IMG/VR virus record: IMGVR_UViG_3300024341_000001
DNA length: 64,000 nucleotides
Source of the DNA: a virus
Taxonomy: Duplodnaviria > Heunggongvirae > Uroviricota > Caudoviricetes
Reading direction: 5' to 3' (one strand)
Shown: piece by piece, positions 21,382 through 39,901 of the stretch
Numbering within the stretch: the first letter of the stretch is position 1
Layout of the letters: every line of letters starts with the position of its first letter
The notes under the pieces: generated by a model
Database searches by the model: none
What the model saw: only the letters and a program-made list of their open reading frames with translations
Told to the model about the DNA's origin: nothing
Made by a program: the position numbers and the translations under genes

Positions 21382-21844
21382 TCCCTGGATAAGCCCAATA
21401 GGGATTTGCTTGTTTTGATGCGTGGTTTGTATCAGTTAATACTACTTCATCCATAAATTGATCCTTTAGTTTATACAAACGCTTTTCCAACCCATTAATC
21501 ATCTGTGAAGGATGCTCATGATAATGTACGGAGTTTTCATCCCAATTAGGATGAAATCTTTTAATGTCACTATATATAATATATGCTCGTAATGGAGCAG
21601 GATTCACTAATTGACATTTTAAAGCCCATTCATAATTAAGTTGTAAAATATAAATACCGACTGAGGCCGCCTTATCAGAAAATTCCATTGAAATATTTAT
21701 TTGACCGATTTGGTGCGCCTTATGCGCAGGTTGTTCAGGATAATTATATCCGCAACACGACCAAAGTGTTTTGATACCTAATAAGTTTAAATAAGCAATG
21801 GTTTTTACCAATGGTAAATCGATATCGTCTTTTAAGTTTGACAA
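21341..21844 (-). CDS. Hypothetical protein, TYW3-like N-terminus possible
   Basis: LPLVKTIAYLNLLGIKTLWSCCG. Confidence 0.45.
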   Translation of the reverse strand: MSNLKDDIDLPLVKTIAYLNLLGIKTLWSCCGYNYPEQPAHKAHQIGQINISMEFSDKAASVGIYILQLNYEWALKCQLVNPAPLRAYIIYSDIKRFHPNWDENSVHYHEHPSQMINGLEKRLYKLKDQFMDEVVLTDTNHASKQANPYWAYPGSDPWVIRKNDFIC

Positions 21845-22278
21845 ATTTGTACTCCTAGTTCGTCTCTAAGTAAAAAGTTCTTTGCAGTTATTAACTCATT
21901 GGGCACAGAATATTTATTTTGTAAATATTCCCGTTCTAGCATTTTATATCTATGCAATAGTTCCATAGCATCGCTATGACGTTTTCGCGCGTCCTTTATT
22001 GAAGACAGAGAATCTTGCACAAGAATAAACGCGTGTAGTTTAGTAACTAGTTCTTTTTCGTTTAGAGAATATGTTATTCTTTTTCCAAAACACTTTTTAT
22101 CACATTCTTGCCAATTTATCGGTGCTGTTGGATATCGTTCTTCCACTCCTATACGTATAAATCCTGCAGGTAAATGTATTTCAATATTAAATGGTTTTAA
22201 ACTCAAATGAAGTCCTAAACTGATAAAATACCATTTTGTATACCGAAAATAACAAACAAATTCTAATTTTTTATCCAT
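21832..22278 (-). CDS. Hypothetical protein
   Basis: 148-aa ORF. Confidence 0.55.
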   Translation of the reverse strand: MDKKLEFVCYFRYTKWYFISLGLHLSLKPFNIEIHLPAGFIRIGVEERYPTAPINWQECDKKCFGKRITYSLNEKELVTKLHAFILVQDSLSSIKDARKRHSDAMELLHRYKMLEREYLQNKYSVPNELITAKNFLLRDELGVQICQT

Positions 22279-22490
22279 TTGTTCTTCTCATAGTGCCAGT
22301 TTGCAATAACATTATCATCAATACCTATTGCCTGAATCAAACAACCTTCTTGTATTATCAGGTGCGGATCTAATTGTTCAAATTCTTGTTGTGTGCGACA
22401 TTTGTAATACAAACCCCAATCACATTTTAATTCATATCTGATTGCATTATATGGTAATTCAGTTGGAAAATGAAAAACGATGGATCTCAT
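22263..22490 (-). CDS. Hypothetical protein
   Basis: 75-aa ORF. Confidence 0.5.
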   Translation of the reverse strand: MRSIVFHFPTELPYNAIRYELKCDWGLYYKCRTQQEFEQLDPHLIIQEGCLIQAIGIDDNVIANWHYEKNKWIKN

Positions 22491-22723
22491 CTTTGTCCTG
22501 GTCTAGAATCATCACATACCGAAATTACATATTTCGACCCATGATATAATTCTTGTACTTTATGTATAACAACAGTCACATTGTTTGCATATAATTTTCT
22601 CGCAATCTCGAATGGATCTTCGTCAGTCTGGAATTCTGTGCGTACGGGATAACCGCTGCGATTTAACACTGATTCCTCTTCCTGGGAACCATACCACCAA
22701 TTTAAATATATTGTGTAGGTCAT
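22487..22723 (-). CDS. Hypothetical protein
   Basis: Start revised to MTYTIYL (ATGA overlap). Confidence 0.5.
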   Translation of the reverse strand: MTYTIYLNWWYGSQEEESVLNRSGYPVRTEFQTDEDPFEIARKLYANNVTVVIHKVQELYHGSKYVISVCDDSRPGQR

Positions 22724-22971
22724 ACTGGAAATTGTCCTTGTATTTGTCCACAATTTAGACAATAAATAAATGTTACGTTATCACCATCCCCCATTAAACC
22801 TACATCCCTTGGTGGGTAACTTTCAAAACTACTAAACTCGTTTACAGTTTCGTAAGAGTCTTGATACGTAATAAAGAAACACATGTCTTTACATCTTGCC
22901 GAAATATATGCAAGTTTAACCTCATTACATCGTTTGCATGGCTGCTGCAATGCTTTTTTTATTGTTTCCAT
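22720..22971 (-). CDS. Cys-rich hypothetical protein
   Basis: CKRC...CLNCGQIQG; start revised to avoid tRNA-Gly. Confidence 0.55.
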   Translation of the reverse strand: METIKKALQQPCKRCNEVKLAYISARCKDMCFFITYQDSYETVNEFSSFESYPPRDVGLMGDGDNVTFIYCLNCGQIQGQFPV

Positions 22972-22973
22972 AG

Positions 22974-23047
22974 AGCGGGTAACCGGTCTCGAACCGGCCT
23001 TATTCCACGTTGGAAGCGTGGTGCCATACCGACTAGGCGATACCCGC
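22974..23047 (-). tRNA. tRNA-Gly(TCC)
   Basis: Loop CTTCCAA. Confidence 0.93.
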
Positions 23048-23056
23048 ATTTGGACA

Positions 23057-23647
23057 TTATGAATCTTTGTCCAAACGATAATTACTTGTAGAGATATTCA
23101 TTGACTTATAACTCTTCTGAAAACCATCTGTGTTTGCTGCAAAACACAATACGTTTTTGCTATCAAATCCATATGAACGTGTAGCATCATTTATAGCATC
23201 CATATTTGCTGAGAAGAAATCGAATTTCCATCCAAGCGCTGTTTTTGCCGTAATGATATCTTTAATTTGATCTTTCGAAAACCTCACGCTTGAGTTTTCT
23301 TGCCCATCGGTTATGATTACCATAATCACGTGATCAGTTTTTTGATCGTCCGGAAGTTTTGCTTGACGATCCTCAACGCGTTTCACGGCATCACCAATGG
23401 CATCTAACAATGCAGTATTGCCTCTTGGCACATAAGATATACGTGAAAGTGGTACAGCTTTTTGCAATTCTACACCATCTTCAAATACATCATATTCAGT
23501 GTCAAATAAAACAGTAGTTATTTTTGCATCGCCAGGGAGTTTTTTCTGCTCATCAATAAATGTGTTATAACCACCTATTGTGTCAGCCACAAATCCAGAC
23601 ATCGATCCCGAGCGATCGATTACAACAATTATTTCAGTAGGTTTCAT
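23057..23647 (-). CDS. von Willebrand factor A domain protein
   Basis: MIDAS motif VVIDRSGSM, TALLDA, IITDGQEN. Confidence 0.9.
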   Translation of the reverse strand: MKPTEIIVVIDRSGSMSGFVADTIGGYNTFIDEQKKLPGDAKITTVLFDTEYDVFEDGVELQKAVPLSRISYVPRGNTALLDAIGDAVKRVEDRQAKLPDDQKTDHVIMVIITDGQENSSVRFSKDQIKDIITAKTALGWKFDFFSANMDAINDATRSYGFDSKNVLCFAANTDGFQKSYKSMNISTSNYRLDKDS

Positions 23648-25092: not shown

Positions 25093-25097
25093 GAAAT

Positions 25098-25186
25098 AAC
25101 TCATTCCATATGCGTGCTTTGATTTAACATAGATAGCTATCTATGGCTGAAGCGTGCTCGTTACAGCTTACCTTAGAGAATGAGCC
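25098..25186 (-). other. Small structured element with an 18-bp perfect palindrome
   Basis: GGCTCATTC/GAATGAGTT closure; CATAGATAGCTATCTATG at 25128-25145. Confidence 0.4.
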
Positions 25187-25216
25187 ATAATAAAATTAAA
25201 TTACGAGCAAATGGTC

Positions 25217-25417
25217 ATATACCATCTTTATACTGTTGCTCTACCGACTGAGCTATCTCTCCCAACCAGAAAGATAGTTATAGGAGGCTTCTTTTATATT
25301 GTCATGTCCTATACCATAAAATGAATTTAATCATTCAACAAAAGGGACCAACTATCTTTCAGGGTGGAGAGAGTAGGATTCGGACCTACGACACACAGTT
25401 CTTTGATAACGATATAC
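25217..25417 (-). ncRNA. Circularly permuted tRNA-Phe-derived RNA
   Basis: 3' half (ACTGT-GTGTC-T arm-TCTCTCC-A, 25363-25406) precedes 5' half (GGAGAGA-TA-GCTCAGTCGGTAGAGC-A-ACAGT, 25225-25262); spacer closed by 11-bp GAAAGATAGTT/AACTATCTTTC. Confidence 0.8.
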
Positions 25418-25432
25418 TTCGGCTCGTAAAAT

Positions 25433-26830
25433 TTATTTTCTAAGTGCGGCAATCATATCTGTTTTATGCTTAAGTAATATATCACTTACACCTACTTTAT
25501 AGATATGTGGGTTTTCAAATCTAGTGAATTCTTTTCCTAAGCTCTGCAGACGACTTTCCGCATAAAGTCTTGATGTACGTACGATAGGATTAGTTATTAC
25601 AACCTTTCCATTTTCCACGCACTTTATTAAAAGCGCTTCGTTTTTTAGATCTCCAACATCTGATAATCTATCTGGATAAACAGGATCATACAACTTCTTC
25701 GGTGGAGGCATTCCTGCGCAAGTAATACCGTCGCCATAAAAAGTGCCGTCGTTATTATAATAACGATACAGATCTTTTGGTCCGGGTAATGTAGCTTTTT
25801 CAGGATTATCTGAAAATTTCATTTTCGGCTGTCCTTGAATCGATGATAGTTTATATACACCATCATGAGCTCCAGCGCCAGCACCGATAATTAAATTTGT
25901 GCCTACACCATAAATATCAATAGGAGCGTCCTGTTCTTCTAGACTACGAATTACATATTCATCTAATTGATTAGATGCAACTATTTTTACATAAGACAAA
26001 TTGGCCTCATCAAGAAGATTTCTTGCTTTTTTGCTTAGGTACGCAAAGTCGCCGCTATCTAATCGGATACCATGTAATTTACATCCGTTGGCTTCAAGTT
26101 CTTTAGCTACGATTATTGCATTCGGCACACCACTTTTTAATGTATCATAAGTATCAACTAGCAACACTGTGTTGTGCGGATATTCTTTAGCAAACGCACG
26201 AAATGCAGTTAACTCGTTTTCAAAACCAAGTATCCAGGCATGAGCCATTGTACCTACCGCTAAGAGATCGTATTTCTTTGCGGCATAAACATTAGAAGTT
26301 GAAGTTGCACCACCAATAATAGCGGCTTTACTCGCCAAAATACCTCCCAACCCCTGTGCACGTCGTAATCCCATATCAATTATAGGTCGTTCGTTTACAA
26401 CTTGTTTTATACGTGCTGCTTTAGTTGCGATCAATGTACTGAAGTTGATAATGTTGAGCAACAGAGTTTCTAATAATTGACACTCTAGCCAACCACCTTC
26501 AATTCGCAGTATAGGTTCATTTGGAAAAACAACTTCGCCCTCACGCACAGAATAGATATCGCCTTTGAATTGAAAGTCACGTAAATAACTCAAAAAGCCT
26601 GCGTGAAAAATTCCTTGATGAAATAAATACGTTGTATCTTCTTCGGTAAATTTCCAATTCTTTAAGATATCTAACAACTCACTTAATCCGGCAAATAATG
26701 CATAACCGCCGCCGTATGGGTTACGTCGATAAAAATAATCATACGTGGCTCGGTCATTATGGCGGCTCATCTGGAAATATCCTTGTGCCATAACAAGTTG
26801 ATACATATCTGTGTATAACCCGTAGTTCAT
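25433..26830 (-). CDS. pncB: Nicotinate phosphoribosyltransferase
   Basis: TDMYQLVM, DMGLRRAQG, GTMAHAW, LVDTYDT, IRLDSGD, GVGT. Confidence 0.93.
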   Translation of the reverse strand: MNYGLYTDMYQLVMAQGYFQMSRHNDRATYDYFYRRNPYGGGYALFAGLSELLDILKNWKFTEEDTTYLFHQGIFHAGFLSYLRDFQFKGDIYSVREGEVVFPNEPILRIEGGWLECQLLETLLLNIINFSTLIATKAARIKQVVNERPIIDMGLRRAQGLGGILASKAAIIGGATSTSNVYAAKKYDLLAVGTMAHAWILGFENELTAFRAFAKEYPHNTVLLVDTYDTLKSGVPNAIIVAKELEANGCKLHGIRLDSGDFAYLSKKARNLLDEANLSYVKIVASNQLDEYVIRSLEEQDAPIDIYGVGTNLIIGAGAGAHDGVYKLSSIQGQPKMKFSDNPEKATLPGPKDLYRYYNNDGTFYGDGITCAGMPPPKKLYDPVYPDRLSDVGDLKNEALLIKCVENGKVVITNPIVRTSRLYAESRLQSLGKEFTRFENPHIYKVGVSDILLKHKTDMIAALRK

Positions 26831-38371: not shown

Positions 38372-38503
38372 GCGGGTAATTTAAGCGACGTCAGTGTTTT
38401 TAATTTAGCTACTACGTATTTTCATACGCGCTAGGACTTGAACCTAGAGTGTTATATTTTTGAGATATATGCTTTAACCGATAACTAACATCTATCGACC
38501 CGC
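38372..38503 (-). ncRNA. tRNA-like element (CAA loop) with expanded acceptor region
   Basis: TATAT-CTCAAAA-ATATA arm, T-arm CTAGG-TTCAAGT-CCTAG, ends GCGGGT/ACCCGC, about 50-nt insert after the T-arm. Confidence 0.45.
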
Positions 38504-38506
38504 TAG

Positions 38507-38671: not shown

Positions 38672-38678
38672 TTTATTG

Positions 38679-38752
38679 TGGAGACAACCGGAATCGAACC
38701 AGTGCATACCCAGGTCTTCAGCCTAGAGCTCTACCGACTGAGCTATGTCTCC
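38679..38752 (-). tRNA. tRNA-Phe(GAA)
   Basis: Loop CTGAAGA. Confidence 0.94.
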
Positions 38753-38976
38753 ATGTCATTTAATTGTTCATTAATGACTTTTTTATCTTTTCTGCGTTGT
38801 ATAGTATGTTCGCGATATTTGATAGCTTGTTCATATTTACACATACTACAACTATCTTTCAACCAATGATTTTTAAACAACCTATTCGTTTGATTATTAT
38901 ACCACCACTTAAATCTATCCCAAACTCTTTTACGTTTTAAAACCTTTAATTCATCTTTGTCTCTGTTGTGTTTCAT
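38743..38976 (-). CDS. Basic hypothetical protein
   Basis: Start revised to MKHNRDK. Confidence 0.5.
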   Translation of the reverse strand: MKHNRDKDELKVLKRKRVWDRFKWWYNNQTNRLFKNHWLKDSCSMCKYEQAIKYREHTIQRRKDKKVINEQLNDMET

Positions 38977-39634: not shown

Positions 39635-39901
39635 ATTACCGAGCTTACCCAGCTTTTTGTTTTATCCCGTCATTTCTCTATTGGCCTCTACCCGACCGTT
39701 ATTAGACAAGAAGCGTGCCGTCCTGGGTCTGTTTGAGTTGCATACTTGCTGGTGGTGCGAACGAATAATGTGATGGCTTTGAATTACGTTCGGAAAGATA
39801 GCCACAAACTTCCTCAGTATATCTTGGTCACATTCTTCTCCCACTCGCTTCTTTGTATGAGCTGAAGTTCCTCACCGTGGTGTAACGGGTTCTCTTGTAA
39901 T
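39635..39901 (-). ncRNA. rnpB: RNase P RNA (type A-like catalytic domain, divergent specificity domain)
   Basis: P2 CCCGTTA/TGACGGG; P3 then GAGGAA; P4 ACT[T]CAGCT/AGCTGGGT with bulged U; P5 CATAC/GTATG-CAA; P6 AAGAAGCG/CGCTTCTT; L15 GGGTA; AGAGAAATGA and AAAACAAAA linkers. Confidence 0.85.

What the first reader, a model, noticed from the sequence alone, without database searches (positions are those of the whole stretch)
25217..25417. tRNA-Phe gene written in permuted order (3' half before 5' half)
Seen: a complete 3' half (anticodon strand ACTGT, variable GTGTC, T-arm, TCTCTCC-A-CC) lies upstream of a complete 5' half (GGAGAGA, D-arm matching the intact tRNA-Phe at 38679, ACAGT). The ~100-nt spacer is closed by an 11-bp stem. 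Both anticodon ends carry AAAGA, and the outer flanks can form 10 bp (GTATATCGTT/GATGGTATAT). Inferred, three options: a YrlA-type tRNA mimic; a permuted tRNA precursor that is circularised and reopened into a tRNA with an AAA anticodon, as in some algae and archaea; or a tRNA minicircle integrated through its anticodon loop.
Basis: partly seen in the sequence, partly recalled or inferred. Interest (0 to 1): 0.87.

Follow-up and report, generated by a model that had tools for sequence, protein, structure and literature searches.

The report
Phage Y RNA that mimics tRNA
The "back-to-front tRNA-Phe gene" is real, but it is most likely not a tRNA gene: it looks like a Y RNA of the known YrlA type, a tRNA look-alike with a conserved "handle" that probably docks onto the Ro60 (Rsr) ring protein encoded by this 215-kb lake-water phage, here with an unusual 100-base insert in the tip of its acceptor arm.

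Summary
Observation confirmed. On the minus strand (25429->25201), a tRNA 3' half (T arm, acceptor strand, A-CC) precedes a 5' half (acceptor strand, D arm). They are separated by ~100 nt closed by an 11-bp stem, and two nested stems formed by the RNA's ends enclose the whole.

It is conserved. Two related jumbo-phage contigs carry the same layout right after the same NAPRTase gene, but with acceptor loops of only 15-18 nt. A covariance model built from one of them finds the window element (47 bits, E 3e-9). 24 of 31 pairs show compensatory changes.

This architecture defines YrlA RNAs, the partners of bacterial Ro60/Rsr. The phage encodes a complete Ro60. The element's 5' handle (GCCGAAG...CGUUAUC) occurs only four times in the genome, and the other three copies lie directly upstream of rsr. 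My model also hits one rsr-adjacent Y RNA through the handle alone.

Orthologs lack the anticodon stem and the AAAGA repeats, and the phage has no splicing endonuclease, so a true permuted tRNA is unlikely.

Differences from published YrlAs: 101 kb from rsr, inside the tRNA array, below the Rfam threshold, a 100-nt acceptor insert, and C55 in the T loop. Earlier notes of this scan describe similar Ro60/permuted-tRNA RNAs in other phages. No expression data. Verdict: new variant of a known kind.

The parts
25422..25429 (-). P1 5' strand (UUACGAGC), outer closing stem; begins 3 nt after the NAPRTase stop codon (25433-25435)
   Evidence: Pairs with 25201-25208 in the MFE fold. Conserved with fully different sequence in L011 (UGUGGGU/ACCCACA) and one compensated pair in L003. 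Helix 1: 6 of 7 pairs with changes on both sides.
25417..25423 (-). GCCGAAG, which fits the GNCGAAN0-1G motif proposed as the Rsr-binding 5' strand of YrlA RNAs
   Evidence: Motif definition from PMC4201824. GNCGAA-N(0-14)-GTTATC occurs 4 times in the 215-kb genome; 3 copies lie within 1.2 kb upstream of rsr and the 4th is here.
25405..25417 (-). GUAUAUCGUUAUC, a 13-mer invariant in the three orthologs; its first 10 nt are the P2 5' strand (inner handle stem)
   Evidence: Identical in the window, L003/L009 and L011. The ...CGUUAUC ending is shared with rsr-adjacent Y RNAs in this phage and in L050.
25390..25404 (-). AAAGA, then ACUGU (5' strand of stem P3, corresponding to the 3' strand of a tRNA anticodon stem, positions 39-43), then variable region GUGUC ending in C48
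   Evidence: P3 and AAAGA are not conserved in L003 or L011.
25373..25389 (-). T arm GUAGG-UCCGAAU-CCUAC (C in place of U55)
   Evidence: T stem: 6 of 6 pairs with compensatory changes. The UCCGAAU loop is shared with L003; L011 has UUCGAAU.
25363..25372 (-). Acceptor 3' strand UCUCUCC, then A73-like A, then CC
   Evidence: 7 of 7 pairs with 25256-25262. Acceptor helix: 7 of 7 pairs with compensatory changes.
25263..25362 (-). ~100-nt insert in the acceptor loop, closed by a perfect 11-bp stem (25350-25360 with 25269-25279); the inner part folds into small hairpins
   Evidence: Orthologs have loops of 15 nt (L003) and 18 nt (L011) here. The CM places 94 nt as an insert. No copy elsewhere in the genome and no Rfam match.
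25256..25262 (-). Acceptor 5' strand GGAGAGA
   Evidence: 6 of 7 positions identical to tRNA-Phe GGAGACA, and the one difference is compensated on the 3' strand.
25238..25255 (-). UA linker (tRNA positions 8-9) and D arm GCUC-AGUCGGUA-GAGC
   Evidence: Identical to the D arm of the phage tRNA-Phe at 38678-38752. G15 and C48 could form the Levitt pair in all three orthologs (by inspection).
25227..25237 (-).
25217..25226 (-). P2 3' strand GAUGGUAUAU
   Evidence: The orthologs and the rsr-adjacent unit at genome 20520 have ACACGGU here.
25201..25208 (-). P1 3' strand GCUCGUAA, followed by a U-rich tail (AUUUAAUUUUAUU)
   Evidence: A U-rich tract follows P1 in L003, L011 and the window paralog at 11497-11607 as well.

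Best explanation
The element is a phage-encoded Y RNA of the YrlA type. It is about 230 nt long and lies on the minus strand, right after the NAPRTase gene inside the tRNA array. It is probably released from a longer transcript.

Its two ends pair to form a two-stem handle: P1, then GCCGAAG, then P2 ending in CGUUAUC. I infer that this handle docks onto the phage's own Ro60/Rsr ring. The rest folds like a tRNA without an anticodon loop: T arm, 7-bp acceptor stem and D arm, in the 'circularly permuted' order that is the published hallmark of YrlA.

By analogy with Rsr-Y RNA particles in Deinococcus and Salmonella, the tRNA-like domain would tether or gate Rsr towards a partner such as PNPase or a tRNA-handling enzyme. 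The particle would then act in surveillance, degradation or repair of structured RNAs, plausibly tRNAs, during infection.

The window copy differs from its orthologs by a ~100-nt extension of the acceptor arm held shut by an 11-bp stem. It also has an acceptor stem and D arm that closely copy the phage's tRNA-Phe.

Shown: the structure, its conservation and covariation, the Ro60 gene, and the handle shared with rsr-adjacent RNAs. Inferred: transcription, Rsr binding, and the downstream function.
For: 1. Architecture. The MFE fold gives P1, P2, P3, T arm, acceptor stem and D arm (z -4.75).

2. Orthologs at the same place, after NAPRTase and before tRNA-Trp, in L003/L009 and L011. They have closed acceptor loops of 15-18 nt and different but pairing stems.

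3. CM R1 was built from L003/L009 only. It hits the window element at 47.2 bits (E 2.8e-9), L011 at 40.4 bits, a paralog at window 11497-11607 at 33.5 bits, and the rsr-adjacent Y RNA at L004:26-103 at 36.8 bits through the handle alone.

4. Pair counts: 96.4% of cells paired against 33-47% when slid; 24 of 31 pairs with double changes; 0 of 500 shuffles as high.

5. The genome encodes a complete Ro60: TROVE 5e-38 and vWA_Ro60 1.8e-54. The related phage record of 215,066 bp that carries the ortholog RNA also carries an Rsr 73% identical (linked by matching contig length and source).

6. GNCGAA-N(0-14)-GTTATC occurs 4 times in the genome, all on one strand: 3 directly upstream of rsr and 1 in this element. 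The rsr-adjacent units fold with the same geometry. A related phage's rsr locus (L050) has 3 such motifs upstream of rsr, on the same strand.

7. The compact ortholog's best Rfam family is YrlA, over the full model length, E 0.026.

8. [quoted passage not shown]
Against: - No RNA data exist for this phage. Only DNA metagenomes hold it, so transcription, RNA ends and Rsr binding are unproven.
- The Rfam YrlA model does not reach its gathering score: 20.9 against 69 bits for L003, and no hit at E<=10 for the window element or the 11.5-kb paralog.
- Published YrlAs lie within 4 kb of rsr; this one is 101 kb away.
- The AA of GNCGAA is not kept in the orthologs (GCCGGUCG, GUCGUCUG).
- The T loop has C where U55 is expected.
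- The covariation counts rest on an alignment fitted to the model and on only 7 informative sequences, some of them paralogs.
- Only three distinct orthologs were found.
Confidence: 0.8

Rival explanations
1. It is a YrlA-type RNA that is cut open. Because it has a tRNA-length 7-bp acceptor stem followed by A-CC, RNase P and 3' trimming excise the 100-nt insert and CCA is completed, as shown for Mycobacterium smegmatis YrlA. The product is a two-piece, tRNA-Phe-like molecule with a free CCA end, still held on the Rsr handle. This refines the best explanation and does not exclude it.
For: All three orthologs and the 11.5-kb paralog have 7-bp acceptor stems. The bases after the acceptor 3' strand read A-CCC (window), G-CCA (L003, paralog) and G-UCA (L011), whereas none of the 37 true tRNA genes encodes CCA. 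M. smegmatis YrlA with a 7-bp stem is cleaved by RNase P and gains CCA in vivo (PMC4201824). The acceptor stem and D arm are 31/34 identical to tRNA-Phe.
Against: No RNA ends are available. The leader side of the loop partly pairs with the ACC. The 11-bp stem suggests selection to keep the arm closed. The L008 unit has no CCA-like triplet.
Confidence: 0.25
2. It is a tRNA mimic that works without Ro60. Its partner would be another protein, or it would act as a decoy or sponge for host factors that recognise the tRNA elbow or acceptor stem. That would explain why it sits in the tRNA array and not beside rsr.
For: It lies 101 kb from rsr and is linked instead to NAPRTase and tRNA-Trp in three phages. 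The L011 record (130 kb) could not be shown to contain rsr.
Against: The handle sequence and geometry are shared with the RNAs directly upstream of rsr in two phages. A decoy would not need that. No candidate partner gene is conserved next to the element apart from metabolic NAPRTase.
Confidence: 0.1
3. It is a true permuted tRNA gene. The transcript would be circularised through its ends and reopened at the acceptor stem to give a functional tRNA with anticodon AAA (Phe), as in Cyanidioschyzon merolae and some archaea.
For: A 3' half lies upstream of a 5' half. In the window copy only, a 5-bp anticodon-stem equivalent exists, and joining the ends would give AU-AAA-GA. The phage encodes RNA ligases according to earlier notes (e1-1600046 and e1-1600047, not tested here).
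Against: The orthologs have no anticodon stem and no AAAGA repeats. The junction is an 8/5-nt internal loop, not a bulge-helix-bulge. The phage genome has no tRNA-intron endonuclease domain. U55 is replaced by C. The ends are occupied by a conserved two-stem handle that a tRNA precursor does not need. The phage already has tRNA-Phe(GAA).
Confidence: 0.02
4. It is a decaying remnant: a tandem tRNA-Phe duplication trimmed at both ends, or a YrlA gene inactivated by a 100-nt insertion.
For: The 100-nt insert is unique to the window phage. The acceptor stem and D arm look copied from tRNA-Phe. A 13-mer at the insert's start recurs upstream of tRNA-Phe.
Against: All five helices are intact and covary. 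The insert is clamped by a perfect 11-bp stem that keeps the acceptor strands together. The T arm (unusual UCCGAAU loop) and the handle are orthologous to L003, not to tRNA-Phe. Similarity to the tRNA-Phe upstream region stops at the 13-mer. The locus is identical in lake metagenomes from 2018 to 2025.
Confidence: 0.04

Closest known systems
YrlA (Y RNA-like A; Rfam RF02553) of Salmonella Typhimurium and other bacteria (Chen et al. 2014, PMC4201824; Wang et al. 2018, 10.1101/312249)
   Same: The 5' and 3' ends pair into a Ro/Rsr-binding stem. The order is T arm, acceptor-like stem-loop, D arm, that is a circularly permuted tRNA without an anticodon loop. A GNCGAA-G motif lies near the 5' end. 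The genome encodes Ro60. G15:C48, G18G19, U54:A58 and C56 are all possible.
   Different: The score is far below the Rfam threshold. It lies 101 kb from rsr, not within 4 kb, and sits inside a tRNA array. The handle has its own conserved CGUUAUC/ACRGU inner stem. The acceptor stem is 7 bp (6 in Salmonella) with a 100-nt extension. The T loop has C55, so it cannot be a TruB substrate at that position. There is no RtcB in the genome.
Mycobacterium smegmatis YrlA and the YrlAs of Bxz1-like mycobacteriophages (Chen et al. 2014)
   Same: A 7-bp acceptor stem, as in real tRNAs, and C residues encoded after it. Phage-encoded Ro60 with Y RNAs is already documented (22 phages in that study; 357 cultured phage records have a Ro-like gene).
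   Different: Those RNAs lie beside rsr and are found by the published covariance model. Their hosts are actinobacteria. Here the phage is an uncultured freshwater jumbo phage whose Rsr is at most 42% identical to any cultured phage's. [quoted passage not shown]
Cyanobacterial YrlAs with long acceptor stems (e.g. Stanieria cyanosphaera; Chen et al. 2014)
   Same: The acceptor-like arm is much longer than in tRNA.
   Different: I could not compare sequences. Here the extension is a 100-nt branched insert behind an internal loop, and it is absent from the closest orthologs.
Permuted tRNA genes of Cyanidioschyzon merolae and Thermofilum pendens (recalled from my own knowledge, not from a paper read here)
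   Same: The 3' half is encoded upstream of the 5' half on one strand, with an intervening sequence at the acceptor end.
   Different: There is no bulge-helix-bulge at the anticodon junction, no splicing endonuclease, no conserved anticodon stem-loop, and the ends form a conserved protein-type handle.
Deinococcus radiodurans Yrn1 / RYPER (Rsr-Y RNA-PNPase)
   Same: It is the model for how such an RNA could work: the Y RNA tethers the Ro ring to an exonuclease and gates the ring.
   Different: Yrn1 has a different arm order and both strands of the metazoan-type Ro site. No link to PNPase was tested here.

Membership tests
YrlA-type Y RNA (Chen et al. 2014; Rfam RF02553) | T arm, then acceptor-like stem-loop, then D arm, enclosed by a stem formed by the RNA's 5' and 3' ends | tested here: met
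   MFE fold; CM alignment; 96.4% of cells paired and 24 of 31 pairs with compensatory changes.
YrlA-type Y RNA (Chen et al. 2014; Rfam RF02553) | GNCGAAN0-1G motif near the 5' end (the proposed Rsr contact) | tested here: met
   GCCGAAG at 25417-25423. The orthologs keep only GNCG...G (GCCGGUCG, GUCGUCUG), so the motif is only partly conserved in the family.
YrlA-type Y RNA (Chen et al. 2014; Rfam RF02553) | A Ro60/Rsr ortholog is encoded in the same genome | tested here: met
   596-aa ORF with TROVE 5e-38 and vWA_Ro60 1.8e-54.
YrlA-type Y RNA (Chen et al. 2014; Rfam RF02553) | Encoded within about 4 kb of rsr on the same strand | tested here: not met
   Same strand, but the element is at genome 124041-124273 and rsr at 21768-23558, about 101 kb apart.
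YrlA-type Y RNA (Chen et al. 2014; Rfam RF02553) | Scores at or above the Rfam gathering threshold (69 bits) | tested here: not met
   Window element: no hit at E<=10. Ortholog L003: YrlA is the best family, but at 20.9 bits, E 0.026. Whole genome: only weak hits, of which the two full-length ones checked overlap adjacent true tRNA genes.
YrlA-type Y RNA (Chen et al. 2014; Rfam RF02553) | tRNA-like invariant nucleotides that allow the elbow (A14, G18G19, R15:Y48, U54:A58, U55, C56) | tested here: inconclusive
   By inspection, A14, G15:C48, G18G19, U54:A58 and C56 are present. U55 is C in the window and L003 but U in L011 and the paralogs.
YrlA-type Y RNA (Chen et al. 2014; Rfam RF02553) | Bound and stabilised by Rsr in vivo | not testable with these tools
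   There are no RNA runs. The indirect evidence is the handle shared with rsr-adjacent RNAs.
Permuted tRNA gene (C. merolae / archaeal type) | 3' half upstream of 5' half on the same strand | tested here: met
Permuted tRNA gene (C. merolae / archaeal type) | Leader and trailer form a bulge-helix-bulge motif at the anticodon-loop junction | tested here: not met
   The junction is an asymmetric 8/5-nt internal loop between P2 and P3.
Permuted tRNA gene (C. merolae / archaeal type) | A complete anticodon stem-loop can be rebuilt and is conserved in homologs | tested here: not met
   L003 and L011 have no anticodon-stem equivalent and no AAAGA repeats.
Permuted tRNA gene (C. merolae / archaeal type) | A splicing endonuclease is available | tested here: not met
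   PF01974 is absent from the phage genome. The host is unknown.
Two adjacent ordinary tRNA genes (the false positive that Chen et al. warn about) | Each half belongs to a complete tRNA gene | tested here: not met
   ARAGORN and Rfam find no complete tRNA at 25100-25550. The two acceptor strands pair with each other 7 of 7 in every homolog.

The most novel reading that the evidence does not exclude
The RNA is matured like a tRNA. RNase P and 3' trimming remove the 100-nt insert, and CCA is completed on the encoded A-CC. The phage's Ro60 then carries a two-piece, tRNA-Phe-like molecule with a free acceptor end. Such a molecule could be charged, or could serve as bait for host enzymes or toxins that act on tRNA acceptor ends. 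That would make the dispersed YrlA-type genes in the tRNA array part of the phage's defence of its own tRNA pool.
Probability: 0.12. Interest if true: 0.72.

Novelty: new variant of a known kind. Interest (0 to 1): 0.45.

Why it matters
Ro60 and its Y RNAs are conserved from bacteria to humans, yet what the tRNA-like domain of bacterial Y RNAs does is still unknown. This uncultured 215-kb phage carries a Ro60 gene, five simple Y RNAs next to it, and at least two (probably three) tRNA-mimicking Y RNAs scattered among its 37 tRNA genes. All share one handle.

That gives a compact natural set of 'same handle, different cargo' RNAs. It places the tRNA mimics physically among real tRNA genes, which points to tRNA metabolism as the field of action.

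It also shows that the public YrlA model misses such RNAs when they are not next to rsr, so phage and bacterial Y RNAs are probably under-counted. The 100-nt acceptor insert and the tRNA-Phe-like acceptor stem and D arm are natural variants for testing whether the acceptor end has to be closed.

Tried and rejected
- Rfam at its gathering score and at E<=10 on the element gave no YrlA or Y_RNA hit. The same holds for the 11.5-kb paralog.
- BLAST of the element against 50,697 cultured phage genomes found no match.
- Pattern scans with GTATATCGTTATC...T(Y)CGAAT(C) in viral contigs found only the known ortholog plus chance hits in coding DNA (L006, L012).
- The same pattern in metagenome contigs gave 27 loci, none a homolog. 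About 19 are one unrelated conserved coding sequence and the rest are scattered chance matches.
- The 291-aa neighbour used as a synteny anchor found no relatives.
- The next tier of NAPRTase homologs are ordinary bacterial loci.
- Whole-record searches of the related contigs were not possible because the records are not held.
- The genome search with my model on the phage's own genome returned nothing, although cmsearch on the window finds the element at 47 bits.
- With filters off, only the tRNA-like core scores (16.8 bits). My inference is that the 228-nt match exceeds the model's window.
- The insert contains GGTATAGGA, one mismatch from the proposed phage promoter box GGTATAAGA. One-mismatch matches are no more frequent than chance (20 observed against 17.5 expected). 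The sigma-70 and terminator scans gave nothing on the minus strand.
- The idea that the insert was copied from the tRNA-Phe leader is rejected: only a 13-mer is shared, and the remaining 84 nt score like shuffled sequence.
- My descriptor census of handle-bearing RNAs was too permissive and is not used as evidence.
- Reads and contigs from lake metagenomes showed no variant alleles, and there are no RNA runs.
- MAFFT alignments of the orthologs misregister the variable stems, so the CM was built from the gap-free L003/L009 pair.
Full report
SETTING

The window is the minus strand of a 215,016-bp virus record classed as complete. DNA identical to this locus is present in lake-water metagenomes sampled from 2018 to 2025. 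ARAGORN finds 37 tRNA genes in the window, all on the minus strand, so the finding has to be read on that strand.

OBSERVATION

On the minus strand, three bases after the stop codon of a nicotinate phosphoribosyltransferase-family (NAPRTase) gene, the sequence runs in this order:

- UUACGAGC, the P1 5' strand (25429-25422)
- GCCGAAG
- GUAUAUCGUU, the P2 5' strand, followed by AUC
- AAAGA
- ACUGU, then GUGUC
- T arm GUAGG-UCCGAAU-CCUAC
- acceptor strand UCUCUCC, then A and CC
- about 100 nt closed by the perfect 11-bp stem GAAAGAUAGUU/AACUAUCUUUC
- acceptor strand GGAGAGA
- UA, then D arm GCUC-AGUCGGUA-GAGC
- A, then ACAGU
- AUAAA
- GAUGGUAUAU, the P2 3' strand
- GACCAUUU
- GCUCGUAA, the P1 3' strand (25208-25201), followed by a U-rich tail

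RNAfold recovers every helix without guidance (-69.5 kcal/mol, z = -4.75, 0 of 200 shuffles as stable). No complete tRNA is called here by ARAGORN or by Rfam's tRNA model. The two acceptor strands pair with each other 7 of 7. This rules out two neighbouring tRNA genes, the false positive that Chen et al. warn about.

The 5' half plus the acceptor 3' strand matches the phage's tRNA-Phe(GAA) at 31 of 34 positions. The next best tRNA reaches 21. The single acceptor difference is compensated on the other strand.

CONSERVATION

The NAPRTase protein led to related large phage contigs. In L003 (identical in L009 and L010) and in L011 the same layout follows the NAPRTase stop and precedes tRNA-Trp.

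| Feature | L003 | L011 | Window |
|---|---|---|---|
| P1 | AACGAGC/GCUCGUU | UGUGGGU/ACCCACA | UUACGAGC/GCUCGUAA |
| 13-mer GUAUAUCGUUAUC | present | present | present |
| T arm | GUAAAG-UCCGAAU-CUUUAC | AUGGG-UUCGAAU-CCCAU | GUAGG-UCCGAAU-CCUAC |
| Acceptor stem | UCUCCGG/CCGGAGA | ACGAGCA/UGCUCGU | UCUCUCC/GGAGAGA |
| Acceptor loop | 15 nt, starting G-CCA | 18 nt | ~100 nt |
| D arm | GCUC/GAGC | GACU/AGUC | GCUC/GAGC |

Neither ortholog has the ACUGU/ACAGU stem or the AAAGA repeats.

I built a covariance model (R1) from the gap-free L003/L009 pair with a hand-drawn structure of five helices. cmsearch then found the following:

- the window element over the full model length, 47.2 bits, E 2.8e-9, with 94 nt treated as an insert in the acceptor loop
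- L011, 40.4 bits
- a compact paralog at window 11497-11607, 33.5 bits
- further units in L008 (28.4 bits) and L009 (20.9 bits; the L009 unit is in tandem with the first)
- a Y RNA next to the phage rsr gene (L004:26-103), 36.8 bits, matched through P1 and P2 alone with the tRNA-like domain skipped

On the resulting alignment 96.4% of cells form standard pairs, against 33-47% when the partners are slid. 24 of 31 pairs have changes on both sides. No shuffle out of 500 reaches any of the five measures. The alignment is fitted to the model and includes paralogs, so these numbers lean towards the structure. The completely different yet pairing P1, T and acceptor stems are nonetheless visible by eye.

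WHAT IT IS

The order T arm, acceptor-like stem-loop, D arm on a stem made by the RNA's own ends is the published definition of YrlA, the tRNA-mimicking Y RNA bound by bacterial Ro60 (Rsr). Chen et al. 2014 describe it, together with a GNCGAAN0-1G motif near the 5' end (PMC4201824). Wang et al. [quoted passage not shown] They also note that the acceptor stem length varies and is much longer in some cyanobacteria (10.1101/312249).

Four results tie the window element to that class.

1. The phage encodes a complete Ro60: TROVE E 5e-38 and a Ro60-type vWA domain E 1.8e-54.

2. The window element carries GCCGAAG at the expected place.

3. The composite GNCGAA-N(0-14)-GTTATC occurs four times in 215 kb, against about 1.5 expected, all on one strand. 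Three copies lie within 1.2 kb upstream of rsr and the fourth is this element.
   - The rsr-adjacent units fold with the same geometry: an outer stem, then GYCGNNN, then an inner stem ending CGUUAUC opposite ACRGU.
   - A related phage's rsr locus (L050, Rsr 74% identical) has three such motifs upstream of rsr, on the rsr strand only.

4. The best Rfam family for the compact ortholog is YrlA over the full model, although at only 20.9 bits, E 0.026.

The record of 215,066 bp that carries the ortholog RNA also appears to carry an Rsr 73% identical. This link rests on matching contig length and source. Earlier agents of this scan had independently described five Y RNAs upstream of this rsr (e1-1600043, e1-1600044), which agrees with my.

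WHAT IT IS NOT

A true permuted tRNA would need a conserved anticodon stem-loop, a bulge-helix-bulge at the junction, and a splicing endonuclease. The orthologs lack the stem and the repeats. The junction is an asymmetric 8/5-nt loop. PF01974 is absent from the phage. The T loop of the window and L003 copies has C where U55 is nearly universal. The ends are taken up by a conserved handle that a tRNA precursor has no use for.

The minicircle idea predicts repeats at the junctions in homologs, and there are none. A decaying remnant is contradicted by intact, covarying helices and by an insert clamped with a perfect 11-bp stem.

HOW IT PROBABLY WORKS (inference)

The RNA is probably co-transcribed with NAPRTase and the tRNA array and released by processing. 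In L003 the stop codon lies inside P1.

The handle would bind the phage Rsr ring. By analogy with Deinococcus and Salmonella, the tRNA-like domain would then tether or gate Rsr towards PNPase or a tRNA-handling enzyme. Earlier notes report that the phage also encodes RNA-repair enzymes (not re-tested here). Together with the 37 tRNAs, this makes surveillance or repair of tRNA-like RNAs during infection the most plausible field of action.

An open sub-question is whether the acceptor arm is opened.
- For opening: all orthologs have a 7-bp acceptor stem, the feature that makes M. smegmatis YrlA an RNase P substrate with later CCA addition. The bases that follow read A-CCC, G-CCA, G-CCA and G-UCA, while none of the 37 real tRNA genes encodes CCA.
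- For staying closed: the 11-bp clamp argues for a closed arm.

I give the processed form about one chance in four.

DIFFERENCES FROM PUBLISHED YrlAs

- It lies 101 kb from rsr, not within 4 kb.
- It sits in a tRNA array.
- It is invisible to the Rfam model.
- It has a distinct inner handle stem.
- The acceptor arm carries a branched ~100-nt insert that its closest orthologs lack.
- It has C55 in the T loop.
- The acceptor stem and D arm copy the phage's own tRNA-Phe.
- It is one of several such mimics in one genome.

The insert has no copy elsewhere in the genome and no Rfam match. A 13-mer shared with the ORF upstream of tRNA-Phe does not extend further. A near-match to a proposed phage promoter box inside the insert is not above chance.

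NOVELTY AND SCORE

Phage Ro60 genes and phage YrlAs are known: 22 phages in Chen et al., and 357 cultured phage records with a Ro-like gene. TROVE proteins have been noted in some jumbo phages (PMC7824862). Earlier notes of this scan report similar Ro60/permuted-tRNA RNAs in other phages.

The class is therefore known. This is a divergent variant in a new setting. Because it fails two membership criteria (the Rfam score and adjacency to rsr), I file it as a new variant of a known kind and not as a plain member.

Interest is moderate at 0.45. The locus is still a good natural test bed for what the tRNA-like domain of Y RNAs does.

No expression or binding data exist. Confidence in the YrlA-type reading is 0.8.

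Noticed in passing
window 11497-11607 (minus strand): A compact paralog of the same design: outer stem AUCGGC/GCCGAU, GCCGGAU, inner stem GAGAUUG/CAGUCUC ending GUUAUC, T arm AUAGA-UUCGACU-UCUAU, acceptor UUCUCCC/GGGAGAA with G-CCA in an 11-nt loop, and a D-like arm GCG-CAAUGGA-CGC. My model scores it 33.5 bits (E 6e-6); Rfam YrlA does not see it.
   Followed up: partly
window 38372-38506 (minus strand): Probable third handle-bearing mimic: outer stem GCGGGU/ACCCGC, GGGUCGAUAG...GUUAUC, inner stem AUGUUAGU/ACUGACGU, T arm CUAGG-UUCAAGU-CCUAG and a hairpin capped by GAAA. Rfam's tRNA model gives 31.1 bits at 38423-38495, ARAGORN gives nothing, and my model does not find it.
   Followed up: partly
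L009:4673-4806 (also in L003) and L008:5929-6067: The related phages carry a second YrlA-type unit in tandem, directly after the ortholog of the finding (outer stem AUGAGGC/GCCUCAU). Model scores are 20.9 and 28.4 bits. The corresponding stretch of the window (25095-25190) gives no hit.
   Followed up: partly
L009:4545-4670: A ~125-nt block closed by CUCUCGUGG.../...CACUACGAGAG lies between the two RNA units in L009 but is absent from the otherwise identical L003. It may be a small structured insertion.
   Followed up: no
genome 20300-21900 (L004:1-1400), upstream of rsr: An array of about five handle-bearing Y RNAs, a true tRNA and an acceptor-plus-T-arm stub (Rfam tRNA 23.4 bits at L004:729-799). 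The last unit seems to close inside the first ~100 nt of the 596-aa Rsr ORF. Homologs are ~550 aa, so the real start codon is probably ~45 codons later.
   Followed up: partly
window 38746-38976 (minus strand): A 76-aa basic ORF (MKHNRDKDEL...) ends with a TAG that lies inside the first bases of tRNA-Phe. It contains the 13-mer TGAAAGATAGTTG, which also starts the 100-nt insert of the finding.
   Followed up: partly
window 10243-10317 (minus strand): ARAGORN calls a tRNA with anticodon CUA (labelled Pyl), that is an amber-suppressor tRNA. This raises the question of whether the phage reads some TAG codons.
   Followed up: no
window 39635-39901: An earlier first-reader note proposes a phage RNase P RNA here. 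Rfam gives no RNase P match at the gathering score or at E<=1.
   Followed up: partly
window ~11610-11690 (minus strand): A tRNA-like sequence with a CAU anticodon loop lies directly upstream of the 11.5-kb paralog.
   Followed up: no
(NAPRTase homologs): Beyond the four phage relatives (62-67% identical), the closest NAPRTase proteins that carry a name (54-58%) are mostly Balneolaceae (Balneola, Gracilimonas, Fodinibius), with a few other Bacteroidota. This hints at the source of the gene and perhaps the host lineage.
   Followed up: no
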